Made by a program: the position numbers and the translations under genes. This document shows positions 445-60,395 of a stretch of DNA of 64,000 nt, in pieces. Origin of the DNA: Thermoanaerobaculia bacterium (lineage in GTDB: Bacteria > Acidobacteriota > Thermoanaerobaculia > Multivoradales > Multivoraceae); assembly GCA_963664405.1 (NCBI GenBank), contig OY761158.1:554038-618037 (forward strand), in the 5' to 3' direction. Positions within the stretch are counted from its first letter, which is position 1; every line of letters starts with the position of its first letter. Under the pieces are notes generated by a model, which saw nothing but the letters and a program-made list of their open reading frames with translations, had not been told where the DNA came from and searched no databases.

Positions 445-2273
445 TCACATTATCGCCGGAGCGTGTGAGGCCGAGGCGCCACAGGGCGGTCGCTGCATTG
501 GAGGTGGTGGTGAGCTGAGCCCAGGCTGTGGGGCAAGCTCTTCCTGCTCGGTTCGCGGTCTCGGCGAGAGGGTGTAGTTCCACTTTCCTAGGAAGTCGCT
601 CCTGGCCACCGCGAGCTGCAGCATTTCCTTGTCCGATACCCTGACTCCTTTCTGGTATTGGCGTTGATCACGGCACGGCTCGACGCGCAGTCCGGTGGAT
701 GTCGTCGTGTTGCGGACGAGGTTGACGAGGATCTCGAAACTCTCGAGAGGAACTCCGGCCCAGTTCTTGCTGATCTCGCTGAACATCCTGTGCTCGATGG
801 GATTCCATTTACTGGTGCCAGTTGGATAGTGGGCGACGGTGATGATGAGGCCGCACTTGTCTACGAGCTTCTCCTGGAGGTACTTCTTCCAGGCTCGAAG
901 CCGTGCGCCGTTGCTTGCGCCGCTGTCGGCAAGAATGAGGAGACGCTGAGACGCCGGATAGTGAGATCGACCGTATTTGAGCCACCAGGTCGCGATGCTG
1001 TTGACAGCGAACTCCGGCGTGTCCGACGACTGTCCGAGGACGAGAACGCCGAAGTTCCTCTGAAGATCGTAGATCCCATAGGGGGAGGCGATGGCGAGAG
1101 CTTCGGACCGGAAGTCGTGATCCTTGACCCGCTTGGCCTCGCGGCACCATGTCTGTCCCTGGTTCTTGAACCGACCGATCAGCTCCTTCTTCTTCGTATC
1201 GACGCTGATGATCGGGTCGCCAGCGCTTGTGAAATCCTCGCGCAGTCGCTTGATGGCCTTGAACTGTGCATCACGATCTGGGGAGTTCCCCGAAGACAGA
1301 CATTTCCTATTGCTCTTGAGGGAATAGTTCAGGTCTGCGAGCAATCGACGCACCACCGTAGCCGATACGATGATGTCAAGGCGTTCGGCAAGGCATTGGG
1401 CCACCTTTGCAGCGGTCTCGTGCGTCCATCTTTTTGATGACATGGGATCACCAGCTATATCGGCCTCGAGTATGGAATGGATTCCATCGACTATCTCGGG
1501 CGTTTTTTTTCCACTCGTTGGTTGCCACCGCCTGCTCTTCGAACTCTTCCGCGCTCCACGGAGCCGCCGAAGAGCTCGCGACGTCCTTTTGCGACTGTAT
1601 GAGGGTCCAGGTCCAGAAGATCGGCGATCTTCCGGTCGCCGCCATGCCCGAGCTTGGTCGCTTCCAGGCCAGCGAAGAGCCGCCGCTGGCGTTCGTCTAG
1701 CAGGCTGAAGAATAAAACGATGGCAGCCCTGAGCTCCTCGGGGAGCACTTCTGGAACGAGGCTGGCAGCTACATCCTGGAGAGCCTGCCGTTCGTTGCGC
1801 ATCAGCTTCTGCTGACGACGGCGCCCTGTTTCCGAGCACAAGTATACGAACCTCTTCCCAACTCTGGATCGTACGATTCTCTTGCGACGAACGAGGTGCA
1901 ACATCGCGTGCTTGACCTCGACCTGCAGCAGGAGCTCGAGTTCAGAAGCCGTATAGCCGGCAGCGGACCGGTCCACGGCAGCCACCGCAGTTTCGAGGAG
2001 GCTGCCATGCCGACTGAACCTCGCCGAACCGCACGACCACAAACCCAGATCGTCGAAATCGGGAATCTCGTTCAAGGTATAGAACCGCCCTCGATCCGAG
2101 TAGCTGGCCAAATAGCCCAATCGAGACAGCGAACGGTAGACCGTCATGGTGGCTCGGGTTCCCATGGCGTCCTTGAGCTCATCCATGGTGGCCATCTGTT
2201 CGCTCATCAAGAGCTCGCGCACTGTTGCATCACGATCTTCGGCTCGTACCATTTGGTATAGTTCCCCTTCCAA
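445..2273 (-). CDS. ISAzo13-family (Rhodopirellula-type DDE) transposase in two overlapping frames joined by a -1 shift at an A8 run
   Basis: ORFs 1491-2273 (...GGGNQRVEKKRPR*) and 445-1839 (...SGKKTPEIVDGIHSILEADIAGDPMSSKRWT...ISVDTKKKELIG...ADSGASNG...WNPIEHRMFS). The downstream frame is -1 relative to the upstream one. The junction is GTG GAA AAA AAA CGC. Confidence 0.85.
1503..1510 (-). promoter_or_regulatory. A8 homopolymer, candidate -1 frameshift / transcriptional slippage site (or inactivating indel)
   Basis: T8 on the plus strand at 1503-1510, lying in the overlap of the two transposase frames. Confidence 0.4.
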
Positions 2274-2356: not shown

Positions 2357-2770
2357 TTATGCGGTGGCTGAAGAAGGGGGCAGTGGTATGGTCACCCCAG
2401 ATACTGGAAACTTATTTCCGCGCCGACCCTTAGTTGGCTGCGAGTCGGTTTTTTGTCCCCGCGAGGCGTGACTCAGGGTGTGGCGCAGATAGTCGAGGTA
2501 CCCCTCGGGGGGTGGCGTCGTGGGGAGTTCTCGGAGGATGGGGAGAAAGTAGGCGAGGGATCGGATGGGCTGGAGCTTTGGTAGGCGCGGATCTCGGCAT
2601 GCGCGTCGGGCGGAGCCGAGGAGGAGGGCGGCCTGGAGGACGGTGAGAGGCAGGTCTTGGTCGAAGAGCTGGTCGACGATGACGCGGTCGCCGTGGTGGA
2701 AGCGGTGCGGGGTGTCGGGAAGGAGTCGATAGAGGCGGAGGAGCTGGCGCCGATAGTGGCTTCGGGTCAT
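2357..2770 (-). CDS. IS21 accessory ORF downstream of istB (3' end altered by the ISAzo13 insertion)
   Basis: ATGA overlap with the istB stop. Identical to 42324-42680 up to ...SRGQKTDSQPTK, then runs into ISAzo13 sequence. Confidence 0.45.
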   Translation of the reverse strand: MTRSHYRRQLLRLYRLLPDTPHRFHHGDRVIVDQLFDQDLPLTVLQAALLLGSARRACRDPRLPKLQPIRSLAYFLPILRELPTTPPPEGYLDYLRHTLSHASRGQKTDSQPTKGRRGNKFPVSGVTIPLPPSSATA

Positions 2771-3576
2771 GAGCGTCGTCGTGCTGCGCTCCGCCTTTTG
2801 GCGCGGTCCTTGGCCTTTTTTTCAGCAGCCTCCTTGGCCTCCTTGCGGCGATAGGAGTTAGCCTCGATCTTGACGATCTCGGCGTGGTGGGTGAGTCGAT
2901 CGACGAGAGTGACGACGCAGGAGGCGTTGGGAAAGACCTCGGCCCATTCGGCGAAGGGCTTGTTGGTGGTGAGAAGAATGGGCTTGTTGCCGTATCTCCT
3001 GGAGACGACCTCGAAGAGGAGATCCGCGTGGCGGTGGTCGTAGGAGAGATAGCCGAGCTCATCGATTGCCAAAAGCGAGGGTCGGGTGTATTTGGAGAGC
3101 CTTCTCTGGAGCGCCGAGGGGGTTTCCTGGACGGCGAGATCGTTGAGCATGTCGGAGGCGGTGACGAAGCTGGCGGTGGCCCCTCGTTGCAGCGCCTGGT
3201 AGAGGAGGTTCTTGGCAATCATGGTCTTGCCGACACCGTTGGGTCCGAGGAGGATGACGTTGGTGATGTCGTCGAGGAATTGGAGGGTGAGCAGATCCTG
3301 GATCTGCTCGCGGTCGATGCGCTGGGGCCAGGAGAAGTCGAAGTCGGCGATGCTCTTGAAGAGCCCGACGCGGCTGGTGCGGATGCGCCGTTCGAGGCTG
3401 CGCCGTTTGCGCTCGGCCTCTTCTTTGCGCAGCAGCTGTTCGAGCCAGGGCTGTTCTCGGTAGGTGCCCCAGTCGTCGACGAGGGCGTAGAAGCCGAGGG
3501 ATCGGGCGAGCTCTCGTAGTGGTTCGTCAGGGATCGTTGGACTCTTCCTGGGTCGGGCCATCGTCGTTGCCTCCAA
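2767..3576 (-). CDS. istB: IS21-family helper ATPase IstB
   Basis: Walker A LLGPNGVGKTMIAKNL. DELGYL and LLTTNKPFAEW motifs. 269 aa. Confidence 0.95.
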   Translation of the reverse strand: MEATTMARPRKSPTIPDEPLRELARSLGFYALVDDWGTYREQPWLEQLLRKEEAERKRRSLERRIRTSRVGLFKSIADFDFSWPQRIDREQIQDLLTLQFLDDITNVILLGPNGVGKTMIAKNLLYQALQRGATASFVTASDMLNDLAVQETPSALQRRLSKYTRPSLLAIDELGYLSYDHRHADLLFEVVSRRYGNKPILLTTNKPFAEWAEVFPNASCVVTLVDRLTHHAEIVKIEANSYRRKEAKEAAEKKAKDRAKRRSAARRRS

Positions 3577-5035: not shown

Positions 5036-5039
5036 GCCC

Positions 5040-5435
5040 CTATCTCCGTCGGCAACGACGAAAGCTCGTTCGCACAAACTCTCGGCAGGCCTCTCCACAC
5101 TGCATGCATCGCGGATTCCTCGGGTCGTAGCGCACTTCGCGCCTCGGAGTCTCGATCCGACACAGTGTCCTCCCCGAAGTACCGCCTGGGGTACCCTGAT
5201 GCGTCACTTTCTCTGCCCGCTCGCGCTGGCGCCGACGGTAGCGGGCCTGACGGGCGGCATGACAATGCCGACCTCGGAGGCTTCGCTGGTACCGATGGCC
5301 GGCCGCCCGAGTCGATTCCCGACGAGCCACCAGAGCACAAGCCCGGCAGTAACGCTGGCCACGGTCACAGTGCGAGCACAGCGAGATACGCCGACGGCAT
5401 CGAGCACAGTCGAAGAGTCGGTAGTCCGGTCGCAT
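5040..5435 (-). CDS. Cys-rich (three CxxC) basic protein encoded upstream of istA inside the IS21 element
   Basis: MRPDYRLFDCARCRRRISLCSHCDRGQRYCRAC... followed by an Arg-rich tail. Its stop lies 2 nt before the RBS-proximal istA start. Identical in both IS copies. Confidence 0.5.
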   Translation of the reverse strand: MRPDYRLFDCARCRRRISLCSHCDRGQRYCRACALVARRESTRAAGHRYQRSLRGRHCHAARQARYRRRQRERAEKVTHQGTPGGTSGRTLCRIETPRREVRYDPRNPRCMQCGEACREFVRTSFRRCRRR

Positions 5436-5732
5436 CGTCGCCTCCCATTCGACGACGACCCCGACTCTCTGCCATACTGCAAGCGCAGCTAATGCTGCGG
5501 TTTGGGGCAGAGCCCGGGGCGTTTTCTACTTCGCTTTCCCGGGCTCTCGCCGTCTCTGGTCGGCCTGCTCTATCAGAGCAGAGCCCGCACTGCAAAGCCC
5601 TACACCGACTCACGCATCTCTTCCGACCGCAAACACGCCGCCGGGACCACGCACCCGGACCGCCGTTCCGGCGGGATGATGCCGCCCTTCCTGAAGAAGG
5701 CCTAGCTTTCCCGCGGTCGCGAAGCCCTCAGC

Positions 5733-10181: not shown

Positions 10182-10187
10182 GAGTTA

Positions 10188-10347
10188 GTGTCCTGTATCA
10201 GTGGTTCGTTGCATAAATCGCGCAGTCATTTTGTGGGCTGCCAAGGCGCGCCGACGAAGTCATATTGGGTATATTTCGAGGAGGTGCAACGACGGCAGGA
10301 CGCAAAAGGGCCAGCGAGTTATGTGACGAACTACTGGTACAGGACAC
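10188..10347 (+). repeat. TA-flanked palindromic element, copy H1 (conserved-core family)
   Basis: 23-bp arms GTGTCCTGTATCAGTGGTTCGT... pair with ...ACGAACTACTGGTACAGGACAC. Both mismatches are G-T wobbles on the plus strand. Core CAAGGCGCGCCGACGAAGTCATATTGGGTATATTTCGAGGAGGTGCAACG. TA at 10186-87 and 10348-49. Confidence 0.75.
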
Positions 10348-11510
10348 TAGGCTCCCTCTACCAGTCTCCCGACCGACCTCAATACCAGTCCCAACGGTGA
10401 CGAGCTCTCGACCTCGACCTCGAGCTCACCCGGCAATCCATGCTCGAGCACGATCCCGGCAGGCACGCCCGGTTCGATACTGAACTCCACTCGGACCCTG
10501 CCATCGCGGGCCTCTGAGTCTACGTTCGATACTCGAGCCTCGACGCTCCCGTAATGGGTCCATGGGTACCCATCGAGCCGTAGGCGCGCACGTTGCCCCG
10601 GTCGGATGCGACCGACGGCCTTGCCGGGCTCGAACTCGGCCACCACGACATGCCCCCTGTCACTCTCAGGCACGATCGCACAAAGCTGATCGCCCGCCGC
10701 AACGTAGGCGCCCTGGAGAAGAGACTCCGCGATCTTAGCGACCGTACCGCTGACGGGCGCTCTGATCGAGCGTTGCCCGAGCTCTACCTCTAGCCGCTCC
10801 TCGGTTCTTTCAGAAGTGTCGATCGAGCCGCGCAACTGACTTGCCTGCCGGTGCAGACCCTCGATGTCACTCCGGCGATCCCTCTCCTCGATTCGCAGTT
10901 GCTCCTGACGCCGCGCCACCGCCGTACGACGCTGCGACTCGATCGCCTGAGCCATCGCCATCTCCGACTTCGCCTTCTCGAGATCTCGAACCGATTGCAC
11001 CCCCTGCTCTTTCAGTTCCAGGACCTTGGCGTGATTGGAGACCGCGAACTCTCTCGCCGCCTCGGCTTCGTTCAAAGAGGCCTCCAGCTCCTCTACCTCC
11101 AGGCGGGCCGCGTTCTTCAACTGCGCCAGCGCCTTCTCCTCGGAAGCGATCTCGCCGCTGAGGTCGGTCAACTCCGATTCGCTCCCTCTACGCGCGGACT
11201 GCCTCTCGGCCAATTGCAGCTCCTCGGTGCGGGGGTCCAACTCGAGCAGAAGGTCACCGGCTTCGACTCGTCTCCCCAGCGAGATGTGAGTCGCGACAAC
11301 TCTTCCAGATACGGGCGCGGCAACCGCATGGCTCGCGCCACGAACCTCCACCCGAGCCGTCTCACTCACTTCGTAGAGAGAGATGCTGGCGAAGAAGAAC
11401 CACAAGCCCCAGGCGGTCAGGAGCAACAGCGAAGCCACCAGCATGACTGCTGAGAACCGGAACGAATCCGCCTCTAAGGAGCGCGCAGAGCGTGAGAATG
11501 GGATCGCCAT
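10347..11510 (-). CDS. HlyD-family membrane fusion / secretion protein
   Basis: N-terminal TM, long coiled-coil (QLAERQSARR...ELEASLNEAEAARE) and a C-terminal beta-barrel (IRAPVSGTV). 387 aa. Confidence 0.9.
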   Translation of the reverse strand: MAIPFSRSARSLEADSFRFSAVMLVASLLLLTAWGLWFFFASISLYEVSETARVEVRGASHAVAAPVSGRVVATHISLGRRVEAGDLLLELDPRTEELQLAERQSARRGSESELTDLSGEIASEEKALAQLKNAARLEVEELEASLNEAEAAREFAVSNHAKVLELKEQGVQSVRDLEKAKSEMAMAQAIESQRRTAVARRQEQLRIEERDRRSDIEGLHRQASQLRGSIDTSERTEERLEVELGQRSIRAPVSGTVAKIAESLLQGAYVAAGDQLCAIVPESDRGHVVVAEFEPGKAVGRIRPGQRARLRLDGYPWTHYGSVEARVSNVDSEARDGRVRVEFSIEPGVPAGIVLEHGLPGELEVEVESSSPLGLVLRSVGRLVEGA

Positions 11511-26761: not shown

Positions 26762-26922
26762 GTGTCCCGTGCGGGAAGTTCGTTGCCATTCGAGCGCCGA
26801 TGCATCCCGCTGGGCGGCGTTGCTCCTCGTCGACAGAGTCCCAGCTATGCCTGCCTCGGAGCGCCTTGCCCAGCGGGCGCCTCGACGCTCTCGGTGGTCA
26901 ACGAACTTCCCACACGGGACAC
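26762..26922 (-). repeat. TA-flanked palindromic element, copy H4 (core on minus strand)
   Basis: 24-bp arms GTGTCCCGTGCGGGAAGTTCGTTG / CAACGAACTTCCCACACGGGACAC. The single mismatch is C-A on the plus strand, which is a G-U wobble on the minus strand. Minus-strand core CAAGGCGCTCCGAGGCAGGCATAGCTGGGACTCTGTCGACGAGGAGCAACG. TA at 26760-61 and 26923-24. Confidence 0.75.
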
Positions 26923-30742: not shown

Positions 30743-30971
30743 GGACCGGAGCTCCTGTGGACCAAGGCCGTGGATTGGCGGCACATCAGCCGAGGCTCAG
30801 AGCGAGTCGCCTCGAACCCTCATTCGATTGCGACTGACGAGTGTCGATTGTAGCCTCTATTGAAGAACCGTGGAGGTCGCCACATCGCGAAGATCACTCC
30901 GCCTGGAGAGGTAGTCATCACCAGTGCACCACCTCCTCGGCTCTGCGAAGTCGAGTCCTTCGTCACGAGTA

Positions 30972-31126
30972 CATGCGGCCATAAGTACGGGTACGTTTCG
31001 AACGTCGATGCGCCTCGCCAGCAAGACGCGCGACTGAGGCGTACCTGGGAGTACGTCGCAGGGAGCGCAACGCCGCTGGAGAGGATGCAGCGGCGTTCCA
31101 AACGTGCCCGTACTTGTGGCCACATG
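30972..31126 (+). repeat. TA-flanked palindromic element, copy H2
   Basis: About 34-bp arms CATGCGGCCATAAGTACGGGTACGTTTCGAAC / GTTCCAAACGTGCCCGTACTTGTGGCCACATG. Core CAAGACGCGCGACTGAGGCGTACCTGGGAGTACGTCGCAGGGAGCGCAACG. TA at 30970-71 and 31127-28. Confidence 0.75.
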
Positions 31127-31231
31127 TACTAGTAGCTTCCGTCGCAGTGTGGCTGTAGGACAAAAGATCTGTCCGTTTGCGATGACCCGGATGAGGAGAT
31201 TAGACTGGTGAACCAATCCGTCTGGAGGTCC

Positions 31232-33732: not shown

Positions 33733-33852
33733 CGAGCAGATTATAAGCGGCCTTTCCTGTCGCCCTTCTGGGATCAGCGGCTCAGGGCTCGATTCCCGCT
33801 GTCGCAAAGCACCTCCTGAGGTCTCGGCCGTACCCCCATGAGAAGACTCTCG

Positions 33853-36514: not shown

Positions 36515-36557
36515 CTCACCGATCCTCCCTGGCGGTTGTGGCAACTAGTGGACCGTA

Positions 36558-36699
36558 ACACTCGAACGTTTAGTGGCTGAGTGAGTCATTCGTGGTCGAG
36601 ATCAAGGCGCGCTGACGCAGGCATAGCGGGGACTATGTCGAGGAAGCGTAACGCAGAGATCGGCCACGAGGGCCGCTCAGGCGCTAAACGTTCGGGTGT
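36558..36699 (+). repeat. TA-flanked palindromic element, copy H3
   Basis: Arms ACACTCGAACGTTTAGTGGCTGAG / CTCAGGCGCTAAACGTTCGGGTGT (two U-G wobbles on the plus strand). Inner helix CGTGGTCGAGATC / GAGATCGGCCACG. Core CAAGGCGCGCTGACGCAGGCATAGCGGGGACTATGTCGAGGAAGCGTAACG. TA at 36556-57 and 36700-01. Confidence 0.75.
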
Positions 36700-36818
36700 T
36701 ACGGCCCGCTAGCCTACTTGCAAGCCCATTGGCGGATCAAGCGCTGGAGATCCGCCATTTGCTTCCAACCCCGTCGTGTATCCTCTTCTCATCTGGCAAA
36801 TTCGTAGCGTGAGGACAT

Positions 36819-38269: not shown

Positions 38270-39299
38270 CTACGCGGCTTTTCTTTCGATGGTGAAGTCT
38301 CGATCCTCGCGCCACACCGTCCAGGCAATGCGGGCGATCTTGTTCGCCAGCGCGACGGCGGCGCGGTTGTGTCCTCGGCGTTTCTCGACCTGCAGCGCCC
38401 ACGTGTACAGAGGGCTTGGGTTGTGGACTCTCTTGGCCGCCAACAGACAGGACCGAGCGCCGTGAATCAGAAGCCACCGCAGGTACTCGTCGCCTTGTTT
38501 GCTGATGTGGCCGAGCCGACGCTTTTGGGCGGTGGCGTGCACGCGCGGGGTCAGGCCCAAGTACGATCCAAAGCGTCGAGCCGAGGGGAAGCGGTGGATC
38601 TCGCCGACAAACGCCACCATCGCGGTGGCGGTGAGCGGGCCGATGCCGGGCACAGATTGCAGATGCGCGACGGCGGGCATCGTCGGGGCCAGTGCCTCGA
38701 GCTGCTTGGAAACGCTCGCGCAGCGCCGCTCCAGCTCCCGGATCTCCTCACATGCTTCCGCCAGGGTCAAACGCATGGGGTCGGGCAGATCGTTGGCGTC
38801 ATCTGCGATCAGCTCTCGTACCCGGGGCACTACGTTCTTGGCACCCTGGGCGATGAAGTGACCGTGCTCTCGCAACAGGCCGCGTACGCCGTTCAGCCGT
38901 GCCGTGCGCGTCTCCATCCAGGCCGAGCGCAACCGGTGCAAGGCCCCCACACCGCGCTGCTCGACGGTCTTGATCGGCACCGGCTCGATCTCCTCGTTGC
39001 GGTCGGCTTCCAGCAGCGCCTTCGCATCCGTGCGATCGGTCTTCTTGTGCCGGCGACGGTAGGGCCGTACCAGGTGAGGCGGTAGCAGCACCACCTCGTG
39101 ACCGAGCTTCTGGATCTCCTCAGCCCAGAAGTGGGCGGAACCACATGCCTCCAGAAGCACACGCGAAGCCTCGCGCTGCGCGAAGAACCGCAGAAACTTC
39201 TTCCGCGACAAGCGACACCGTTCGGCCACCTTCCCGGGAACGTGGGACACGGCGATCTCCAAGACGTTTTTCGCCAAGTCGACGGCGATGGTCGTAGAC
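38270..39299 (-). pseudogene. IS110-family transposase gene interrupted after codon 3 by IS21 copy 2
   Basis: ...TTIAVDLAKNVLEIAVS...PGIGPLTATAMVAFVGEIHRFPSARRFGSYLGLTPRVHATAQKRRLGHISKQGDEYLRWLL. ATG-CAG-TCT lies at 42699-42691 on the far side of the IS. TAGAC is duplicated at 39295-99 and 42690-94. Confidence 0.88.
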
Positions 39300-39658
39300 T
39301 GTTGATGGCTGCGAGAAAGCGCATCCCGTTGGCTGCGAGCGCAGTTTCCGGGATGGAGTGAGCTGAGGGCTTCGCGACCGCGGGAAAGCTAGGCCTTCTT
39401 CAGGAAGGGCGGCATCATCCCGCCGGAACGGCGGTCCGGGTGCGTGGTCCCGGCGGCGTGTTTGCGGTCGGAAGAGATGCGTGAGTCGGTGTAGGGCTTT
39501 GCAGTGCGGGCTCTGCTCTGATAGAGCAGGCCGACCAGAGACGGCGAGAGCCCGGGAAAGCGAAGTAGAAAACGCCCCGGGCTCTGCCCCAAACCGCAGC
39601 ATTAGCTGCGCTTGCAGTATGGCAGAGAGTCGGGGTCGTCGTCGAATGGGAGGCGACG

Positions 39659-40054
39659 ATGCGACCGGACTACCGACTCTTCGACTGTGCTCGATGCCGT
39701 CGGCGTATCTCGCTGTGCTCGCACTGTGACCGTGGCCAGCGTTACTGCCGGGCTTGTGCTCTGGTGGCTCGTCGGGAATCGACTCGGGCGGCCGGCCATC
39801 GGTACCAGCGAAGCCTCCGAGGTCGGCATTGTCATGCCGCCCGTCAGGCCCGCTACCGTCGGCGCCAGCGCGAGCGGGCAGAGAAAGTGACGCATCAGGG
39901 TACCCCAGGCGGTACTTCGGGGAGGACACTGTGTCGGATCGAGACTCCGAGGCGCGAAGTGCGCTACGACCCGAGGAATCCGCGATGCATGCAGTGTGGA
40001 GAGGCCTGCCGAGAGTTTGTGCGAACGAGCTTTCGTCGTTGCCGACGGAGATAG
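39659..40054 (+). CDS. Cys-rich (three CxxC) basic protein upstream of istA
   Basis: Identical to 5040-5435(-). Confidence 0.5.
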   Translation: MRPDYRLFDCARCRRRISLCSHCDRGQRYCRACALVARRESTRAAGHRYQRSLRGRHCHAARQARYRRRQRERAEKVTHQGTPGGTSGRTLCRIETPRREVRYDPRNPRCMQCGEACREFVRTSFRRCRRR

Positions 40055-40058
40055 GGGC

Positions 40059-41567
40059 GTGATCGACGCACAGCTGCGCGGGGAGATCCGTCGTCTGTTC
40101 CTGGTCGAGAAGTGGAAAGTCGGCACGATCGCTCGACAGCTACAGCTGCACCCCTCAACCGTGCGCCGGGCGCTGGAGAAGTCCGGCGTGCTACCCCAGC
40201 AGCGACGAGGGAGGATGATCGATCCTTACCTGCCGTTCATCGAGCAGGTGCTCGGGACCTACCCACGACTGCCGGCGAGCCGTCTCTACACCATGGTGGT
40301 GGAGCGCGGCTATCCAGGAGGCCCGGATCAGTTTCGCCACCTGGTGGCCTCGATGCGACCGAAGCCCCAGCGCGAGGCGTTTCTCTCGCTGCGCATGCTG
40401 CCAGGAGAGCAGGCGCAGGTCGACTGGGGCCACTTCGGTCGGCTCCGCGTCGGCCGGGCACATCGTCGGCTCTATGCCTTCGTCTTCGTGCTGTCGTTCT
40501 CGCGCACGGTCTTCGTGCACTTCACCCTCGACACTCGTCTCGAAACCTTCTTGCACGCTCACCAGCTGGCCTTCCACTACGTCGACGGCGTCGTCAGGAC
40601 CGTTCTGTACGACAACCTGCGAACCGCGGTGATCGAGCGGCAGGGAACCGCGGTGCGCTTCCATCCCGTGCTGCTCGATTTCGCCAGCCACTACGGCTTC
40701 CTTCCCACCGTCGCCGCGGTGGCTCGGGGAAATGAGAAAGGCCGCGTCGAGCGCGCAATCCGCTTCCTGCGAAGCTCGTTCTTCGGCGCCCGAACGGTGA
40801 GCGATTTGGATCGTCTGAATCGGCAGGTCCTGGAATGGTGCCAGAGGTCGCAGCGCAGACCCTGGCCGCAGGACCGACAGCGAACCGTGAAAAGCGCCCT
40901 GGCCCAGGAACGACCTCGACTGCTTGAGCTTCCCGGAGACGACTTCGAAACCGACCTGCGACTGGAGATCAAGGTCAGAAAGACGCCGATCGTGCGCTTC
41001 GACCTCAACGACTACTCGGTGCCGCACAGTCATGTGCAGAGGACCGTCACGCTCCTCGCCAGCGAGCATCGGGTGCGGATCCTCGATGGCCAGGAGCTCC
41101 TCGCCGAGCACCCTCGCTCGTACTCCCGGGGCGAGCAGATCCTCGATCCTCAACACCTCGAGGAGCTCCTCGCTCACAAACGCAGGGCCCGACGACACCG
41201 GGGCTTCCATCGGCTGTTTTCCGCTGTGCCTCGATGCGAAGAGCTGATGCAGCAGCTCGCCGAGCGAGGCGAGAACCTCGGAACGCAGACCGCCGGCCTG
41301 CTCCGACTCCTGCGCCAGTACGGCCCCCAGCGACTCGACAAAGCCGTGCGCGAAGCGCTCCTGAACCACGCACCGCGATTCCAGTCCGTCCGGCTCCTAC
41401 TCGAACGGCACCAGCGCGGCCTCGGTCAGCCCCCGGCTTTACCGGTGCCGCTCAGCCAGGAGCTCCAACAGCGAGATCTCTCCGTGAGACCGCACAACCT
41501 CGAGGACTACGACCAACTTGGAGGCAACGACGATGGCCCGACCCAGGAAGAGTCCAACGATCCCTGA
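40059..41567 (+). CDS. istA: IS21-family transposase IstA
   Basis: Identical to copy 1. GTG 40059 is preceded by GGAG. The longest ORF starts at 39996. Confidence 0.92.
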   Translation: MIDAQLRGEIRRLFLVEKWKVGTIARQLQLHPSTVRRALEKSGVLPQQRRGRMIDPYLPFIEQVLGTYPRLPASRLYTMVVERGYPGGPDQFRHLVASMRPKPQREAFLSLRMLPGEQAQVDWGHFGRLRVGRAHRRLYAFVFVLSFSRTVFVHFTLDTRLETFLHAHQLAFHYVDGVVRTVLYDNLRTAVIERQGTAVRFHPVLLDFASHYGFLPTVAAVARGNEKGRVERAIRFLRSSFFGARTVSDLDRLNRQVLEWCQRSQRRPWPQDRQRTVKSALAQERPRLLELPGDDFETDLRLEIKVRKTPIVRFDLNDYSVPHSHVQRTVTLLASEHRVRILDGQELLAEHPRSYSRGEQILDPQHLEELLAHKRRARRHRGFHRLFSAVPRCEELMQQLAERGENLGTQTAGLLRLLRQYGPQRLDKAVREALLNHAPRFQSVRLLLERHQRGLGQPPALPVPLSQELQQRDLSVRPHNLEDYDQLGGNDDGPTQEESNDP

Positions 41568-42327
41568 CGAACCACTACGAGAGCTCGCCCGATCCCTCGG
41601 CTTCTACGCCCTCGTCGACGACTGGGGCACCTACCGAGAACAGCCCTGGCTCGAACAGCTGCTGCGCAAAGAAGAGGCCGAGCGCAAACGGCGCAGCCTC
41701 GAACGGCGCATCCGCACCAGCCGCGTCGGGCTCTTCAAGAGCATCGCCGACTTCGACTTCTCCTGGCCCCAGCGCATCGACCGCGAGCAGATCCAGGATC
41801 TGCTCACCCTCCAATTCCTCGACGACATCACCAACGTCATCCTCCTCGGACCCAACGGTGTCGGCAAGACCATGATTGCCAAGAACCTCCTCTACCAGGC
41901 GCTGCAACGAGGGGCCACCGCCAGCTTCGTCACCGCCTCCGACATGCTCAACGATCTCGCCGTCCAGGAAACCCCCTCGGCGCTCCAGAGAAGGCTCTCC
42001 AAATACACCCGACCCTCGCTTTTGGCAATCGATGAGCTCGGCTATCTCTCCTACGACCACCGCCACGCGGATCTCCTCTTCGAGGTCGTCTCCAGGAGAT
42101 ACGGCAACAAGCCCATTCTTCTCACCACCAACAAGCCCTTCGCCGAATGGGCCGAGGTCTTTCCCAACGCCTCCTGCGTCGTCACTCTCGTCGATCGACT
42201 CACCCACCACGCCGAGATCGTCAAGATCGAGGCTAACTCCTATCGCCGCAAGGAGGCCAAGGAGGCTGCTGAAAAAAAGGCCAAGGACCGCGCCAAAAGG
42301 CGGAGCGCAGCACGACGACGCTCATGA
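41518..42327 (+). CDS. istB: IS21-family helper ATPase IstB
   Basis: Identical to copy 1. Confidence 0.95.
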   Translation: MEATTMARPRKSPTIPDEPLRELARSLGFYALVDDWGTYREQPWLEQLLRKEEAERKRRSLERRIRTSRVGLFKSIADFDFSWPQRIDREQIQDLLTLQFLDDITNVILLGPNGVGKTMIAKNLLYQALQRGATASFVTASDMLNDLAVQETPSALQRRLSKYTRPSLLAIDELGYLSYDHRHADLLFEVVSRRYGNKPILLTTNKPFAEWAEVFPNASCVVTLVDRLTHHAEIVKIEANSYRRKEAKEAAEKKAKDRAKRRSAARRRS

Positions 42328-42680
42328 CCCGAAGCCACTATCGGCGCCAGCTCCTCCGCCTCTATCGACTCCTTCCCGACACCCCGCACCGCTTCCACCA
42401 CGGCGACCGCGTCATCGTCGACCAGCTCTTCGACCAAGACCTGCCTCTCACCGTCCTCCAGGCCGCCCTCCTCCTCGGCTCCGCCCGACGCGCATGCCGA
42501 GATCCGCGCCTACCAAAGCTCCAGCCCATCCGATCCCTCGCCTACTTTCTCCCCATCCTCCGAGAACTCCCCACGACGCCACCCCCCGAGGGGTACCTCG
42601 ACTATCTGCGCCACACCCTGAGTCACGCCTCGCGGGGACAAAAAACCGACTCGCAGCCAACTAAGTGCGCTTTCTCGTAG
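42324..42680 (+). CDS. IS21 accessory ORF downstream of istB (118 aa, intact form)
   Basis: ATGA overlap with the istB stop. Ends 9 nt inside the right terminal repeat. No domain recognised. Confidence 0.45.
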   Translation: MTRSHYRRQLLRLYRLLPDTPHRFHHGDRVIVDQLFDQDLPLTVLQAALLLGSARRACRDPRLPKLQPIRSLAYFLPILRELPTTPPPEGYLDYLRHTLSHASRGQKTDSQPTKCAFS

Positions 42681-42689
42681 CCGGTAACA

Positions 42690-51005: not shown

Positions 51006-51065
51006 TGTGTATTCAACTCCTCTGAGGCTCCTCGTGGCCGAGGCGAGTTCCTGCTTCCAGAACGA

Positions 51066-51222
51066 TGACTTGGCGACATCTTACCCGTCGCCCGTGGGAT
51101 CAGCGGCTCAGTGCTCGATCTGTGCGGTCGCACCTCACCGAATTTCACGACAGCCCCTCTGTTCAGAGGCTTATCCGCTTCCGGCTATACGTGTCGTCTC
51201 TCGCCACATAAAGCGTCACACT
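51066..51222 (+). repeat. REP-like triple-hairpin unit (solo copy)
   Basis: TTGGCGACATCTTACCCGTCGCCC...GGTCGCACCTCACCGAATTTCACGACA...GTGTCGTCTCTCGCCACATAAAGCGTCAC. Collinear with 57420-57575 and 60250-60395. Confidence 0.65.
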
Positions 51223-51549
51223 CCTGACGCGAGAAGGATCTCGTACGAGCGGCTTAGGGGGCGAGACAATCTTCTTTGCGTTCTGTGATCGCCTCGCCGT
51301 ACGACAGGAAAGCGCTCTCCTCTCGTCCTTCTCCTCAGTGCTCGGTCGGAGCACCAGGCTATACTGGCTTCAACGACCAATGACTTCGCGAGCGAGCGGT
51401 CTTGTCGTGCTCCTGGTCTCCGTTGGACCGGCGTTAGCTCAGGAGGGCCAACAGGTCCCAGATCCGGGCGCCGAGACCCGCGTCGTCCCCTATACAGACC
51501 ACTTTGGGGATACTCGAGTCGACTACATTATTGGCGGTCGGGCTGACCG

Positions 51550-51738
51550 GAATGGCATTAACATCTTCATATAACGTGCGTGGCCAACGGTTAAGCATTG
51601 CTTTCCCGCCGCAGCTGCCAACGTGTGACAGCTACGAAATCATTGGGGGTTTCGCCCGCCGAAGTCTTGCAGCATTGAAGTCACAGCATGACGTAACCGT
51701 TGTCGTGATTGGTTTTACGAAGATGTTAATGCCATTCA
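51550..51738. mobile_element. MITE-like element: 19-bp perfect terminal inverted repeats and 10-bp direct repeat
   Basis: TIR GAATGGCATTAACATCTTC (51550-68) and its reverse complement (51719-37). GGGCTGACCG at 51540-49 and 51739-48. AT-rich interior that can fold (CCAACGGTTA / TAACCGTTG). Confidence 0.7.
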
Positions 51739-51791
51739 GGGCTGACCGCAGCGAAGCCCCCGTCGTCTGCAATTCCATGACCGGTTGAACC

Positions 51792-53493
51792 ATGATGATT
51801 GACGAGTCGGCGTTCTCGGCGTATTTGGACTGCCCATATAAGGCCTTTCTTACATTGCAACAACTGACTGGCCCACAGCGCGAATTTCAGAAACTGCGGT
51901 CGAGGCTCCACGAGAAACTCCTGTCCCGTGTCGAATCAGAGATCCTTCGGGTAATAACGCCACGTACTCTGTCGAGAAAGTCTCGGACGACAGTTTCAGA
52001 TCTAAGACGAGGATCGCCCCTCATCCTCAACACCGTACTGTCCAGCTCTCAGTTTTCTTGTCGAGTTGCCGCGCTCCAACGCATAGATGGTCCATCCTCG
52101 TTAGGATCCTTCCTTTACACACCAATCCTTTTTCACGAGGATGCGGCGATTACGTCATCTCAGAAACTTCTTCTAGCATTTGCTGCGAATGTATTGGGCC
52201 GGGTTCAAGGATACGAACCGTCGGTTGGGCACATTGTTTCAGGAACGTCATGTACGCTGAAGAAGGTTTCCCTGAAGGCACTATCCCAACAGGTTGAAGA
52301 TATCATTAACGAACTCCAGCGGTACTCTTCCCAGATATCGGAACCTCGACAACTCCTAAACTCGCATTGTCATATTTGCCAGCACCATGACCGATGCGAG
52401 TCTGACGCACAGCAAATCGACCATCTAAGCAGGCTCAATCGAATAAGCGCGAGTGAAATCGACAAGTTGAATGCCAAGGGGATATTCACCGTTCATCAGT
52501 TGTCCCACACGTTTCGGCCACGGAAGCGTCCGAAGCGGCAAGGTGGACGCGACTACATCCCATACCACCATTCGCTGAGAGCCCTCGCGATTCGCGAGCA
52601 GAAGATCCACGTCTTTCAGCGTCCACCAAGCGTCTCTGCTACGACTCGCGCCTACATTGACATGGAAGGCGACCATGCCGCGCGGCACGTTTACCTAATC
52701 GGCCTCTTCCTTATCCGAAATGGGCGCCAACAGTACACGTCGTTCTGGGCCGAGAATCGAGACGACGAAGAACGCATCTTCCACGCACTGTTCGACAGAC
52801 TATCGCGGCTAGACGACTGCCATTTGTTCCACTATGGAAGCTATGACGGGCGTGCGCTAAAGCGCATGGTTCACTTGGCTCCAACGGAGAGTGTGAAGGA
52901 GCTAGTCACGAAGAACACTACCAATGTCCTCACAAACATCTATGCGCAGGTGTATTTCCCGACATACGGCAATCGACTGAAGGACGTTGCTGCGTTCCTC
53001 GGGTTTGAGTGGACCTACCCAGATTATTCTGGCATGGAAGCGATCTTGTGGCGACACCTGTGGGATCTCAGCCACTCCGCACAAATAAAGGCCCTGCTGA
53101 CCAAATACAACCGTGACGACTGCATGGCATTGAGGCTCGTGCATGAGGCGATCGAAGAAATCGCGACTGACTCACATGAACCGGTCGCTTGCGTGTCCTC
53201 GGAGTCAAATCCGCTGAAAGAGCCGATTGTATCCACAGAATCCCTCATGCACTCATCTGACTATAAAGATTGGGGACGAAGGGAGTTTGCGCGAGAAGAG
53301 TTTCGTCTTGTGGCCGACAGCGCCTACTTCGACTACCAACGAAACAGAGTCTACGTCCGCACGAACACAAAGGTGAGACGATATCAGCGACGGTCAAAGA
53401 AGCGGAGTGAGAAGGTCACGACTCGCCCGAACAAGATCATTGATTACACTGTCGCAGTGTGTCCGCGATGCAAGTCCGACCCTCTCTGCCAAG
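51792..53493 (+). pseudogene. N-terminal part of the nuclease-transposase fusion gene: Cas4/RecB-like PD-(D/E)xK nuclease (4-Cys) + RNase H-like (PF13482-type) exonuclease + first half of zf-IS66
   Basis: FSAYLDCPYKAFL ... CHICQHHDRCESDAQQIDHLSRLNRISASEIDKLNAKGIFTVHQL (TM0106-family pattern). YIDMEGD...YLIGLF...FWAENRDDEERIF...LFHYGSYDGRALKR. ...VAVCPRCKSDPLCQ is then interrupted by the IS3. Confidence 0.75.
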
Positions 53494-53549
53494 ATGCTTG
53501 AGACATCTCGCCACCGCTTAAATAGAGTAGGGCGGAGAGGTGAAACCTG

Positions 53550-56205: not shown

Positions 56206-57419
56206 GCGGGCTCCGCCGGGGATCCTCCACTCTTAACTGTAATCGCGACTCTGGCACCCTCGCTGCCGGATATGCGCTCGGCAACCAGGGAGTCGAGAGG
56301 GCGCCGGTAGAGGCTGGTCTCGGCTCCCTCGCGACGGACGAAGACCACCATCCGACCGTCCGGAGAGAGCGCGAAGGGCTGATCCGGAGCTGCCTCGAGG
56401 TCGAGAGCCGTGACCGTCCAGGTGTCGCCCGAGGCAGCGTCGCTCGCCGCATCGCCTCCATCTCGGAACAGGACGAAGCCCAAGACAAGACCGACCACCA
56501 CGGCGAGGGCGAGGACGAGGACCGCCAACACCGGTCGCCTGGTAGGCACCGTCTCGGTCTCGGGCTTATCGGTAAGGGCCTCGAGTTCGAGGGCCAGGTC
56601 GTGGGCGTGCCAGCGCCGCTCGGGAGCCTTCTCGAGGCAGCGACTCACCAGCCAGTCGAGGCGATCGGGAGCGACTGGCCGCCGCTCCCGTAACGGCTCC
56701 GGCTCGCTGGTCATGATCGCGGCCATGAGCCTCACCTGGGATTCCCCGGCAAAGGGTCGCGCTCCGGTCACCATCTCGTAGAGGACAGCACCCAGCCCCC
56801 AGATGTCCGAGCGCTCGTCGGCCTCCTTGCCTTCGAGCTGCTCAGGGGCCATGTACTGGAGCGTCCCCAGGATCGAGCCTTCGCCGGTCAGGGGCTGCGT
56901 GACGGTCGGGGTCTGTGTATCCCCCACGGCCAGCCCGGAGTGAACCACGCCCTTGGCGAGGCCGAAGTCCAGAACCTTGGCTCCGTCTCGGGTCAGCATG
57001 ACATTGCCAGGTTTGAGGTCCCGGTGGATCACTCCGTGACGATGGGCGGCATCGATGGCCTCGGCGATCTCCGAACCGATCGTCGCCACCTCCTCTAGGG
57101 GCAGGGCGCCGCGTCGAAGCCGGTCCTCGAGAGTTTCGCCCTCCAGGTACTCCATGACCAGGTAATCGACACCGTCTTCGCTGCCAATGTCGTGGAGGGT
57201 ACAGATGTTGGGATGGCTCAGCTGCGAGAGGCTCTTCGCTTCACGCTCCAGCCGCTGGCGGTAGAGCGTGTCCTGCCCGAGCTCCTCAGGCAGTACCTTG
57301 ATCGCGACATCCCGCTCCAGGCGTGTGTCACGACCCAGGTACACCTCTCCCATGCCGCCCTTTCCGCGCAGCTCGACGATCTCGTAGGGACCGAGGCGGG
57401 AGCCTGGTTCTAGAGCCAT
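56187..57419 (-). CDS. Ser/Thr protein kinase, truncated paralog of 57583-60249
   Basis: HRDLKPGNVML, DFGLAK, APE. Collinear with the long paralog to ...ERISGSEGAR (about 56250), then unrelated sequence from the AT-rich insert. Confidence 0.85.
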   Translation of the reverse strand: MALEPGSRLGPYEIVELRGKGGMGEVYLGRDTRLERDVAIKVLPEELGQDTLYRQRLEREAKSLSQLSHPNICTLHDIGSEDGVDYLVMEYLEGETLEDRLRRGALPLEEVATIGSEIAEAIDAAHRHGVIHRDLKPGNVMLTRDGAKVLDFGLAKGVVHSGLAVGDTQTPTVTQPLTGEGSILGTLQYMAPEQLEGKEADERSDIWGLGAVLYEMVTGARPFAGESQVRLMAAIMTSEPEPLRERRPVAPDRLDWLVSRCLEKAPERRWHAHDLALELEALTDKPETETVPTRRPVLAVLVLALAVVVGLVLGFVLFRDGGDAASDAASGDTWTVTALDLEAAPDQPFALSPDGRMVVFVRREGAETSLYRRPLDSLVAERISGSEGARVAITVKSGGSPAEPAQSGIS

Positions 57420-57575
57420 GACTTGGCGACATCTTACCCGTCGCCCGGTGGAATCAGCGGCTCGGAGCTCGATCTGTGCTGTCGCACCTCACCCGGAAGT
57501 GCGACACCGCCCCGATTTCGGGGCCTATCGACTTTCAGCTATGCCTGTCGCACTCCGCCAGCAAAGGCGACAAGG
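57420..57575 (+). repeat. REP-like triple-hairpin unit
   Basis: GGCGAC(57425-30)/GTCGCC(57440-45). GTCGCAC(57481-87)/GTGCGAC(57499-505). TGTCGC(57546-51)/GCGACA(57567-72). Confidence 0.65.
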
Positions 57576-60249: not shown

Positions 60250-60395
60250 GAGTTGGCGACATCTTACAGTCGCCCGGTGGATCAGCGGCTCAGAGCTCGA
60301 TCTGTGCTGTCGCAGAGCACCCAAAAGTGCGACAGCGGGAGGCTTATTCGCTTCGAGCTATTCTTGTCGTGGTCCGCCCCCAAATGCGACAGTCT
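60250..60395 (+). repeat. REP-like triple-hairpin unit
   Basis: TTGGCGACATCTTACAGTCGCCC...CTGTCGCAGAGCACCCAAAAGTGCGACAG...CTTGTCGTGGTCCGCCCCCAAATGCGACAG. Confidence 0.65.

What the first reader, a model, noticed from the sequence alone, without database searches (positions are those of the whole stretch)
36558..36699. Family of four TA-flanked ~150 bp palindromic elements with a conserved core, compensatory stem changes and strand-specific wobbles
The copies lie at 10188-10347(+), 30972-31126(+), 36558-36699(+) and 26762-26922 (core on the minus strand). Each is a long hairpin with 23-34 bp outer arms around a shared core. The cores align as follows. H1 CAAGGCGCGCCGACGAAGTCATATTGGGTATATTTCGAGGAGGTGCAACG. 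H3 CAAGGCGCGCTGACGCAGGCATAGCGGGGACTATGTCGAGGAAGCGTAACG. H2 CAAGACGCGCGACTGAGGCGTACCTGGGAGTACGTCGCAGGGAGCGCAACG. H4rc CAAGGCGCTCCGAGGCAGGCATAGCTGGGACTCTGTCGACGAGGAGCAACG. Two inner helices co-vary: GCGCC/GGTGC, GCGCT/AGCGT and GCTCC/GGAGC, and GGCATAG/CTATGTC versus GGCGTAC/GTACGTC with loop YNGGGA. The outer arms differ between copies yet remain paired. Most arm mismatches (7 of 10 across the four copies) are G-T wobbles on the strand that carries the core and would be C-A on the other strand. This argues for selection on a single-stranded RNA or ssDNA fold and against simple MITE decay. All copies are bounded by TA on both sides, which fits a TA target duplication as in IS630/Tc1-type MITEs and Correia/ERIC-like elements. 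Three copies sit 58-119 nt upstream of a start codon in sense orientation: aldolase 26703, secreted protein 31232 and AIM24 36819. I could not match the core to a known RNA family from memory.
Basis: seen in the sequence. Interest (0 to 1): 0.8.

Follow-up and report, generated by a model that had tools for sequence, protein, structure and literature searches.

The report
Mini-transposon hairpins with conserved structured cap
The four ~165-bp palindromes are copies of a large, previously uncatalogued family of miniature transposons from Thermoanaerobaculia (Acidobacteriota), unusual because their tip carries a strongly conserved, base-pair-covarying module and the whole hairpin is kept foldable on one strand only.

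Summary
The four elements are the four best inverted repeats of the window. They share a 50-51-nt core found nowhere else in the window. A core pattern and a covariance model recovered more than 110 further copies, nearly all in Acidobacteriota/Thermoanaerobaculia MAGs. There were no matches in Rfam, IMG/VR or PLSDB plasmids.

They are MITEs. They are ~165 bp, have no ORF, carry terminal inverted repeats starting with G, and sit in C-T(N)A-G sites. A related two-core element has a filled and an empty site. One subfamily's ends and 3-bp TWA duplications match ISAzo13-family insertion sequences, one of which lies in the window with its own empty site. The link to IS630/Tc1 is therefore not supported.

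Covariation is strong: 94% of cells paired, 15 of 26 pairs with double changes, 0 of 500 shuffles as good. Strand asymmetry is also strong: arms fold better on the core strand in 67 of 67 copies, and 16 of 17 subfamilies have more sense than antisense wobbles.

Orientation is random relative to genes (58 versus 57). The "sense 5'-UTR element" reading therefore fails.

The function of the cap is unknown. I favour a transcript-level protein-binding hairpin. A single-stranded-DNA fold-back used in propagation is a close rival.

The parts
36545..36712 (+). H3: complete element including the flanking CTAG on each side. Body 36548-36709, TA at 36546-47 and 36710-11. C-type subfamily, also found in L050, L090 and L092.
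   Evidence: I3; 93.3 bits
36603..36653 (+). H3 conserved cap (CAAG...AACG). It comprises P1b, a 3-nt AAC bulge, P2 (GCGCU/AGCGU), a purine-rich internal loop (GACGCA / GAGGA), P3 (GGCAUAG/CUAUGUC with a G.U pair) and the loop CGGGGA.
10186..10349 (+). H1: element with TA flanks (TTAG...CTAG). Body 10188-10347, cap 10242-10291. P3 is degenerate. The right-hand CTA doubles as the TAG stop codon of the minus-strand HlyD-family gene 10347..11510.
   Evidence: I4; 72.7 bits
30967..31132 (+). H2: element with body 30969-31129, left flank GA and right flank TA-G. Cap 31022-31072, of the second loop variant (GACUGA / GCAGGGA).
   Evidence: I1; 78.1 bits
26759..26925 (-). H4: element with CTAG on both sides. 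Body 26762-26922, cap 26818-26868 on the minus strand. It lies between the divergent HpcH-aldolase gene (-) and the Dabb-domain gene (+).
   Evidence: I2; 100.1 bits
422..2432 (-). Resident ISAzo13-family insertion sequence. Body 425-2429, TIR GGGTCGGCGCGGAAATAAC, 3-bp duplication TTA at 422-424 and 2430-2432, transposase ORF 445..1839. Its ends resemble those of the GGGCTCGTGCAGAAATAAC MITE subfamily. It contains no cap.
   Evidence: (I2)
42650..42689 (+). Empty site for that IS. This is the intact end of the second IS21 copy, reading ...CAGCCAAC TAA GTGCGC..., and it shows insertion into CTNAG with a 3-bp duplication.
   Evidence: (D9, I3)

Best explanation

Anatomy. Each copy is about 165 bp and has no ORF. 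It has G-initiated terminal inverted repeats that differ between at least 17 subfamilies. It sits in a C-T(N)A-G target whose TA or TNA is duplicated.

Mobilisation (inferred). They are most likely mobilised in trans by DDE transposases of the ISAzo13 family or close relatives.

What sets them apart. The centre is not a random spacer. It is a 50-51-nt module with P1b, an AAC bulge, P2, a purine-rich internal loop with tandem G.A pairs, P3 with an invariant G.U pair, and a YRGGGR loop. This module is conserved across all subfamilies. The entire element, down to the terminal repeats, is kept pairable on the cap-bearing strand only. The active form is therefore a single-stranded hairpin.

Favoured mechanism (inferred). 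My committed reading is that it acts as RNA (about 0.45). Read-through transcripts that carry the sense strand would fold into a long imperfect hairpin, and its cap would be a binding platform for a conserved host protein or RNase, affecting transcript processing or stability.

Shown: family membership, TIRs and target sites, an empty site for a related two-core element, covariation, strand asymmetry, and lack of orientation bias.

Inferred: the identity of the transposase, RNA as the active form, and a host partner for the cap.
For: Repeat family and distribution: searches give 116 model hits, nearly all in Acidobacteriota/Thermoanaerobaculia MAGs, many at contig ends.

MITE features:
- Long TIR hairpins.
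- CTAG on the left in 17 of 24 copies of the CTAG-type; TCA on the left in 27 of 34 and on the right in 26 of 34 A-type copies.
- Filled versus empty site: L037 has CTAG-element-CTAG where L067 has a single CTAG.

ISAzo13 link:
- Metagenomic ISAzo13 ISs end in GGGCTGACGCAAAAATAACTTC with TWA duplications in CTWAG.
- The MITE subfamily in L020, L067 and L014 ends in GGGCTCGTGCAGAAATAACTGCG with TTA or TAA duplications.
- The double-core element in L007 ends in GGAGTCTGCGCGGCAGAAAC.
- The window IS has its own empty site.
- A 3-bp TSD is reported for ISAzo13 in PMC10045372.

Structure: 94% of cells paired, 15 of 26 pairs with changes on both sides, 0 of 500 shuffles as good, slid controls 28-53% paired. 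Divergent variants flip P3 to GGCGAUG/CAUCGUC.

Strand specificity:
- Sense folds better in 67 of 67 copies. This holds for arms alone with RNA parameters, and for 59 of 67 with DNA parameters.
- 16 of 17 subfamilies have more sense than antisense wobbles, p = 0.0003.
- Both C>T and A>G exceed their complements 2:1 within the A-type.

Precedent: the MITE-like bcr1 repeat has RNA-level compensatory changes (PMC3184786).
Against: - No full-length IS with ends matching the A-, B-, C- or D-type subfamilies was found. None of the 80 sampled ISAzo13 loci contains the cap.
- The CTAG-type duplication is 2 or 4 bp, not the 3 bp typical of ISAzo13.
- Orientation is random with respect to genes (58:57; >E> 8 versus <E< 5). 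A host-level RNA function would be expected to bias it.
- No promoter-like or terminator-like signal lies inside the window copies.
- There is no expression data.
- Both strands still fold very stably (-114 versus -99 kcal/mol). It is therefore unclear why single A.C mismatches would matter for an RNA.
- Private mutations are not clearly depleted in the cap, although that test is biased by how the copies were found.
Confidence: 0.55

Rival explanations
1. The elements are the same MITEs, but the selected fold is single-stranded DNA. The sense strand would fold back during replication or transposition. This would reconstitute a duplex terminal repeat and present the cap to a conserved host or transposase-associated factor. 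Selection would then act on the element's own propagation.
For: - Orientation is random relative to genes, which fits a process independent of transcription.
- The asymmetry includes the terminal 25 bp (24.5 versus 7.3).
- Wobble positions are shared within subfamilies, that is, inherited from master copies.
- The cap is conserved across all TIR subfamilies, as expected of part of the replicator.
- The sense strand is also more stable with DNA parameters in 59 of 67 copies.
- REPINs are a precedent for hairpin-shaped non-autonomous elements (PMC3116915, listed).
Against: - DDE transposases of this kind are not known to use single-stranded substrates.
- There is no significant bias relative to local GC skew (48:52).
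- About 10% G.T pairs, bulged A residues and purine-rich internal loops are more typical of RNA.
- No Y1/HUH transposase association was seen.
Confidence: 0.3
2. The element is a cis-regulatory RNA, a riboswitch-like or leader element, acting on the downstream gene. This is what its sense position upstream of three start codons in the window suggested.
For: Three of the four window copies lie 56-119 nt upstream of a start codon in sense orientation. The unpaired nucleotides are conserved and the stems covary.
Against: - Neighbouring genes are unrelated.
- Across loci, 32 copies are sense-upstream and 40 are antisense-upstream of a gene start. Overall, 58 flanking genes are co-oriented and 57 are not.
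- Copies carry TIRs and target duplications, and a related element has an empty site.
- Copies occur between convergent genes and inside operons, for example between pgk and tpiA in L009.
Confidence: 0.04
3. The element is an ordinary decaying palindromic MITE with no single-strand function. Compensatory changes would come from hairpin-templated template switching or gene conversion. The wobble asymmetry would come from a mutational bias.
For: Template switching can create and maintain hairpins without selection (PMC8794818, listed). There are many WC-to-WC double changes within the A-type (25 events). There is no clear depletion of private mutations in the cap.
Against: - Template switching would erase the G.U pair in P3, which is conserved in 36 of 37 sequences.
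- The asymmetry has the same polarity in 16 of 17 unrelated-arm subfamilies. Orientation is nevertheless random relative to transcription and GC skew, so no fixed mutational environment exists.
- Both C>T and A>G are in excess, which rules out deamination as the only cause.
- Unpaired cap nucleotides are the most conserved positions across subfamilies whose arms are unalignable.
Confidence: 0.1
4. The CTAG-flanked subfamilies, which include H1, H3, H4 and probably H2, are mobilised by IS630/Tc1-type transposases. ISAzo13 relatives would not be involved.
For: Insertion into CTAG with TA duplication is the classical IS630 signature (my own knowledge of that family). The filled and empty pair shows a single CTAG becoming CTAG...CTAG. 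The 2-bp reading differs from the 3-bp ISAzo13 duplication.
Against: - No IS630 transposase is among the window ORFs scanned, and none was looked for in the loci.
- A CTAG-flanked double-core element has a clearly ISAzo13-like end, GGAGTCTGCGCGGCAGAAAC.
- All subfamilies share the cap and G-initiated ends, which suggests one lineage.
Confidence: 0.2

Closest known systems
ISAzo13-family insertion sequences and their deletion derivatives (prokaryotic relatives of eukaryotic Zator)
   Same: Ends start with G (GGG or GAG). Insertion is into C-TNA-G with a 3-bp duplication. One MITE subfamily has a terminal repeat nearly identical to the ISAzo13 consensus. A resident ISAzo13 IS lies in the same window.
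   Different: The elements have no transposase. The interior is not derived from the sampled ISs, since there was no cap in 80 ISAzo13 loci. Most subfamilies have other ends and a CTAG (2- or 4-bp) duplication.
bcr1 repeat of the Bacillus cereus group
   Same: It is a MITE-like repeat of about 155 bp with direct-repeat flanks and a non-conserved genomic distribution. It is transcribed, and compensatory base changes maintain an RNA-level structure (PMC3184786).
   Different: [quoted passage not shown] In the family here, one cap is shared by many subfamilies with different ends.
Correia/NEMIS elements of Neisseria and ERIC/IRU elements of enterobacteria
   Same: They are 100-170-bp palindromic intergenic repeats that fold as long hairpins when transcribed. 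Correia has TA duplications. These points come from my own knowledge and from Fig. 1 of PMC3184786.
   Different: In those families the ends are the conserved part. Here the ends vary and the centre is conserved. There is no sequence relationship and the host phylum differs.
REPINs (REP doublets mobilised by RAYT transposases)
   Same: They are hairpin-shaped, non-autonomous, high-copy elements thought to act as single strands (PMC3116915, listed).
   Different: REPINs are built from two about 25-35-nt REPs whose stems are conserved and whose loop is variable. They have no target duplication and depend on a Y1 transposase. Here there are TIRs with target duplications, a conserved loop module and DDE-type ends.
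Integron attC sites
   Same: They are imperfect palindromes of about 60-140 bp whose function depends on folding of one specific DNA strand (my own knowledge).
   Different: attC sites have conserved ends (R''/R' boxes) and a variable centre, sit in cassette arrays next to an integrase, and are not dispersed. None of these features is present here.

Membership tests
MITE (non-autonomous TIR transposon) | Small size (under about 300 bp) and no coding capacity | tested here: met
   Bodies are 160-162 bp. Stop codons occur in the cap. ORFs overlapping the copies are spurious or start downstream of them.
MITE (non-autonomous TIR transposon) | Terminal inverted repeats | tested here: met
   Arms of 36-47 nt at 85-86% complementarity in the window. 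The same holds in 67 full-length copies.
MITE (non-autonomous TIR transposon) | Target-site duplication | tested here: met
   CTAG/TA flanks in the CTAG-type. TCA at both ends in 20 of 34 A-type copies. TTA or TAA at both ends in L020, L014 and L067.
MITE (non-autonomous TIR transposon) | Many dispersed copies with unrelated flanks | tested here: met
   116 model hits in 93 loci plus the window, with different flanks.
MITE (non-autonomous TIR transposon) | Presence/absence polymorphism (an empty site) | tested here: inconclusive
   This was shown only for a related two-core element, L037 filled versus L067 empty. No empty site was found for a single-core copy.
ISAzo13-derived MITE | Terminal repeats matching those of an ISAzo13-family IS | tested here: inconclusive
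   Met for the GGGCTCGTGCAGAAATAAC subfamily and the L007 double-core element. The match is only loose (shared first G and an A/T-rich block) for the A-, B-, C- and D-types, which include the window copies.
ISAzo13-derived MITE | 3-bp duplication (TNA in CTNAG) | tested here: inconclusive
   Met for the A-type and the GGGCTCG-type. CTAG-flanked subfamilies fit 2 or 4 bp better.
ISAzo13-derived MITE | An autonomous partner with the same ends in the same genomes | not tested
No ISAzo13 transposase lies within the 8-kb loci around the copies.
IS630/Tc1-type MITE (Correia-like) | TA duplication in an NTAN or CTAG target | tested here: met
   CTAG on both sides in most CTAG-type copies, and a single CTAG in the empty site. 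This cannot be distinguished from a 4-bp duplication.
IS630/Tc1-type MITE (Correia-like) | Ends matching a resident IS630-family transposon | tested here: not met
   The transposases found among the window ORFs scanned are of IS21, IS91 (Y2), IS30-like and ISAzo13 types. None is IS630. The rest of the genome could not be searched.
Any Rfam RNA family | Score at or above the family threshold, or any E <= 10 match | tested here: not met
   0 matches at gathering thresholds over the window. 0 matches at E <= 10 over H3.
REPIN / IS200-IS605-type single-strand element | Conserved short REP stems, no target duplication, an associated Y1 (RAYT/TnpA) gene | tested here: not met
   The stems vary and the loop is conserved. 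Target duplications are present. No Y1 transposase was found among the window ORFs scanned.
Cis-regulatory leader / riboswitch | Fixed sense orientation upstream of a consistent set of genes | tested here: not met
   32 sense and 40 antisense copies lie upstream of gene starts. Neighbouring genes are unrelated.

The most novel reading that the evidence does not exclude
The conserved cap is a new structured nucleic-acid motif recognised by a conserved cellular factor, and it is required in cis for the element's spread. This would be a DDE-type MITE lineage whose amplification depends on a strand-specific single-stranded fold-back, as DNA or as RNA. That differs from recognition of duplex terminal repeats alone. 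It would also explain the one-sided wobbles and the orientation-specific TCA flanks.
Probability: 0.25. Interest if true: 0.8.

Novelty: new variant of a known kind. Interest (0 to 1): 0.55.

Why it matters
Thermoanaerobaculia are known almost only from metagenome bins. This repeat breaks their assemblies: many copies sit at contig ends. At about one copy per 16 kb in this window, it is probably a major shaper of their intergenic regions.

For transposon biology, the inverted conservation pattern is unusual. The ends are variable, the centre is invariant, base pairs covary, and only one strand is protected. This pattern separates what the transposase sees from something else the element needs. 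It gives a concrete, testable handle on the old question of whether palindromic MITEs act or amplify as single-stranded hairpins.

For RNA biology, it is a well-supported structured motif absent from Rfam.

If the cap turns out to be only an inherited spacer, the finding reduces to a new MITE family in an understudied class.

Tried and rejected
- Rfam at gathering thresholds and at E <= 10 gave nothing.
- ARAGORN found no tRNA-like feature.
- Hammerhead and kink-turn readings of the internal loop, made by eye, failed. The CUGAUGA/GAAA core is not conserved. The 5' strand has four extra nucleotides where a simple k-turn has none. Neither reading is claimed.
- The core pattern found nothing in IMG/VR. 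H3 found nothing in PLSDB plasmids.
- Consensus promoter and terminator scans found nothing inside H2-H4.
- An exact look-up of the AIM24 protein, intended to find strain variants with an empty site, returned no record.
- tblastn with the ISAzo13 transposase against the 93 MITE loci gave no hit.
- A search of those loci for 0.6-4-kb units bounded by MITE-type ends found none. Pairs of caps 1.6-3.4 kb apart flank ordinary genes, for example pgk-tpiA in L009.
- The model found no cap in 80 ISAzo13 loci from metagenomes.
- Cluster look-ups did not reveal the taxonomy of the transposase relatives.
- Orientation relative to local GC skew showed no significant bias.
- Density of private mutations in cap versus arms was inconclusive. 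The copies were collected with an exact core pattern, which biases the cap towards conservation.

Full report
**Checking the observation**

Reading the four sites shows four long imperfect palindromes. They are also the four best inverted repeats in the window: arms of 36-47 nt, 85-86% complementary, 75-94 nt apart.

- A pattern built from the invariant core positions matches exactly these four places. It matched nothing in 100 dinucleotide-preserving shuffles.
- A covariance model of the core plus its first stem (R1) scores them 72.7-100.1 bits. The next window hit scores 15.9 bits.
- H3 folds at -110.2 kcal/mol on the + strand (z = -12.5). Its reverse complement folds at -80.9 kcal/mol.

Two boundaries need correcting:

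- H3's palindrome is 36548-36709, with CTAG on both sides.
- H2's palindrome is 30969-31129.

**The wider family**

Nearly all are MAGs labelled Acidobacteriota or Thermoanaerobaculia. Many have several copies per genome, and many copies lie at contig ends.

The model raised the total to 116 copies in these loci plus the window. These include divergent variants that the pattern had missed.

There were no matches in Rfam, IMG/VR or PLSDB plasmids, and no tRNA-like call.

Clustering the arms gives at least 17 subfamilies whose outer about 25 bp cannot be aligned with each other, while the centre stays the same. The four window copies belong to four different subfamilies.

**Structure of the cap**

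On a MAFFT alignment of 37 distinct sequences, the proposed structure has these parts:

- P1, a helix of 10 bp.
- An AA bulge.
- P1b (GGC/GCC).
- An AAC bulge.
- P2, a helix of 5 bp.
- An internal loop GACGCA / GAGGA, readable as G.A, A.G, C-G, G.A, a bulged C, then A.G.
- P3, a helix of 7 bp.
- A 6-nt YRGGGR loop.

This structure is 94% paired. Fifteen of 26 pairs have changes on both sides. None of 500 column shuffles reaches any of the five measures. Slid controls are only 28-53% paired (RNAalifold agrees).

Divergent copies flip P3 to GGCGAUG/CAUCGUC and P2 to GCCGC/GCGGC. One G.U pair in P3 is kept in 36 of 37 sequences.

A second loop variant (GACCGA / GCAGGGA, as in H2) keeps the same arrangement of purine-purine pairs, with the bulged C on the other strand. 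Unpaired nucleotides are the most conserved positions. This is the pattern of a functional folded nucleic acid.

I could not assign the loop to a named 3-D motif. My by-eye comparisons with a hammerhead core and a simple k-turn fail.

**Strand asymmetry**

- All 67 full-length copies fold better on the cap-bearing strand (mean -114.1 versus -98.6 kcal/mol).
- The same holds when the cap is replaced by GAAA, so that only the arms count: 67 of 67 with RNA parameters and 59 of 67 with DNA parameters.
- Transition mismatches between the arms number 289 sense-strand wobbles and 65 antisense ones.
- Counted per subfamily to remove shared ancestry, 16 of 17 subfamilies have the sense excess (sign test p = 0.0003). 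It holds in the inner arms (47.5 versus 9.0) and in the terminal 25 bp (24.5 versus 7.3).
- Within the large A-type subfamily, single-sided changes from Watson-Crick pairs give 23 distinct wobble events against 11 A.C events. There are also 25 double (compensatory) events.
- Both C>T (14 versus G>A 7) and A>G (8 versus T>C 4) are in excess. Cytosine deamination alone therefore cannot explain it.

**Evidence that these are mobile elements**

The CTAG-type subfamilies are flanked by CTAG on both sides in most copies.

The A-type is flanked by TCA on the left in 27 of 34 copies and on the right in 26 of 34. It is preceded by C (29 of 34) and followed by G (24 of 34).

A third group ends in GGGCTCGTGCAGAAATAACTGCG, with TTA or TAA at both ends (L020, L014, L067).

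An all-against-all comparison of flanks found one filled and empty pair. A 289-bp relative carrying two caps in opposite orientation (L037 3944-4232) is bounded by CTAG...CTAG. The paralogous sequence in L067 of the same MAG has a single CTAG. No empty site was found for a single-core copy.

**Which transposase**

The window encodes a DDE_Tnp_ISAZ013 transposase. It lies inside a 2005-bp IS with ends GGGTCGGCGCGGAAATAAC.

That IS interrupts the end of one of two identical IS21 copies. The other copy preserves the empty site, CAGCCAAC-TAA-GTGCGC. The IS therefore duplicates 3 bp in CTNAG.

Eighty ISAzo13-family loci fetched from metagenomes give a consensus end of GGGCTGACGCAAAAATAACTTC, with TWA duplications in CTWAG. 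This agrees with the 3-bp duplication reported for the family (PMC10045372). It closely matches the GGGCTCG-type MITE ends, and those of the L007 double-core element (GGAGTCTGCGCGGCAGAAAC).

The other subfamilies share only the initial G and the C-T(N)A-G target. None of the 80 ISs contains the cap, and no ISAzo13 gene lies within the 8-kb MITE loci.

ISAzo13-type mobilisation is therefore well supported for one group and inferred for the rest. However, no IS630 transposase is among the window ORFs scanned.

**Genomic context**

In the window, H2, H3 and H4 lie between divergent genes and H1 lies between convergent ones.

I called genes in the loci using a codon-position GC criterion, which gave the right neighbours for all four window copies. 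By these calls, the cap strand is co-oriented with 58 flanking genes and anti-oriented with 57. In co-directional gene pairs it is sense 8 times and antisense 5 times.

There is no significant relation to local GC skew (48:52). No promoter-like or terminator-like consensus lies in the window copies. The idea of a sense-oriented leader element is therefore not supported.

**Mechanism**

Shown:
- This is a MITE family.
- Its centre is a conserved, covarying structure.
- Its whole hairpin is preserved on one strand, independently of the local direction of transcription.

Inferred:
- The active form is single-stranded.
- The cap is a recognition platform for a partner more conserved than the transposases, because the ends diverge while the cap does not.

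RNA versus single-stranded DNA cannot be settled with these data.

- For RNA: the roughly 10% wobble content, the bulged A residues and purine-rich loops, and the precedents of bcr1, ERIC and Correia (PMC3184786).
- For ssDNA: the random orientation, the inclusion of the terminal repeats in the asymmetry, and inheritance of the wobbles from master copies.

I put RNA at about 0.45, ssDNA at about 0.30, and a non-functional by-product at about 0.10. Template switching (PMC8794818, listed) could explain the compensatory changes. It cannot explain the conserved G.U pair or the fixed polarity of the asymmetry.

**Novelty**

The kind is known: palindromic MITE-like repeats with RNA-level structure. 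What is new is the family itself, its host class, and the inverted conservation pattern of one invariant structured cap shared by many subfamilies with different ends. The strength of the one-strand signal is also new. I rate it a new variant of a known kind.

Noticed in passing
window 2429-5810 and 39284-42665: Two 100%-identical 3382-nt IS21-family copies (IstA-like 523 aa and IstB 269 aa) lie in inverted orientation. They bracket a 33.5-kb segment that contains all four hairpin elements. This looks like a composite-transposon arrangement or an inversion-prone arrangement.
   Followed up: partly
window 42805-~45300 and 61069-~63400: A unit encoding a phage-integrase-type recombinase (286 aa) and an IS91-type Y2 transposase (408 aa) is directly duplicated at about 99% identity, 18.3 kb apart.
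   Followed up: partly
loci L001-L093, A-type copies (for example L013 345-523): The 3-bp flank of the A-type is almost always TCA relative to the cap strand: 27 of 34 on the left, 26 of 34 on the right, and TGA only once. A symmetric insertion into CTNAG should give TCA and TGA equally. The reason for the orientation specificity is unexplained.
   Followed up: partly
L009 ~7838, L042 ~59, L043 ~4375, window 30966-30969: In 4 of 24 CTAG-type copies, from different subfamilies, the left flank reads CGAG instead of CTAG. The right flank never shows the mirror change. This recurrent one-sided T-to-G difference is unexplained.
   Followed up: no
L022, L030, L035, L043, L058, L062, L080 (left arm of A-type copies): A hairpin of about 32 nt (CGGGCACCGCCGCGCGGAGCGCGGTGGTCGGG) is nested in the left arm of several A-type copies. 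This suggests a second, smaller REP-like palindromic repeat that inserts into the first.
   Followed up: no
L037 3944-4232; L007 2305-2572; L021 ~200-470: These 'double-core' elements carry two cap hairpins in opposite orientation between one pair of terminal repeats. Each cap's sense strand runs inward from the nearer end. They may be the ancestral architecture of the single-cap elements.
   Followed up: partly
window 10347-10349 (H1 right flank): The TAG stop codon of the HlyD-family gene 10347..11510 (-) is formed by the CTA of the element's flanking CTAG. In high-GC genomes stop codons are natural C-T(N)A-G targets. Several loci show elements abutting ORF ends.
   Followed up: partly
window 51028-51154, 57381-57508, 60211-60336 (weaker 33761-33828); also 56242-56907 versus 59060-59737: Another repeat family of about 125 nt (...GACTTGGCGACATCTTACCCGTCGCCCG...GATCAGCGGCTCAG...) occurs next to duplicated 0.7-kb segments (86-95% identical) near a protein-kinase gene. 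It is unrelated to the hairpin family.
   Followed up: no
window 51539-51748: A different 37-nt inverted repeat (84% complementary, 136 nt apart) lies just upstream of a 569-aa RNase_H_2-superfamily ORF (51792..53501). It may be the end of another mobile element.
   Followed up: no
L018 4117-4246; L033 6432-6534; L037 6919-7903: Some copies are rearranged. L018 has a 26-nt internal duplication inside the cap. L033 has a foreign insertion in the cap. L037 has an 806-bp tandem duplication carrying a whole A-type copy.
   Followed up: no
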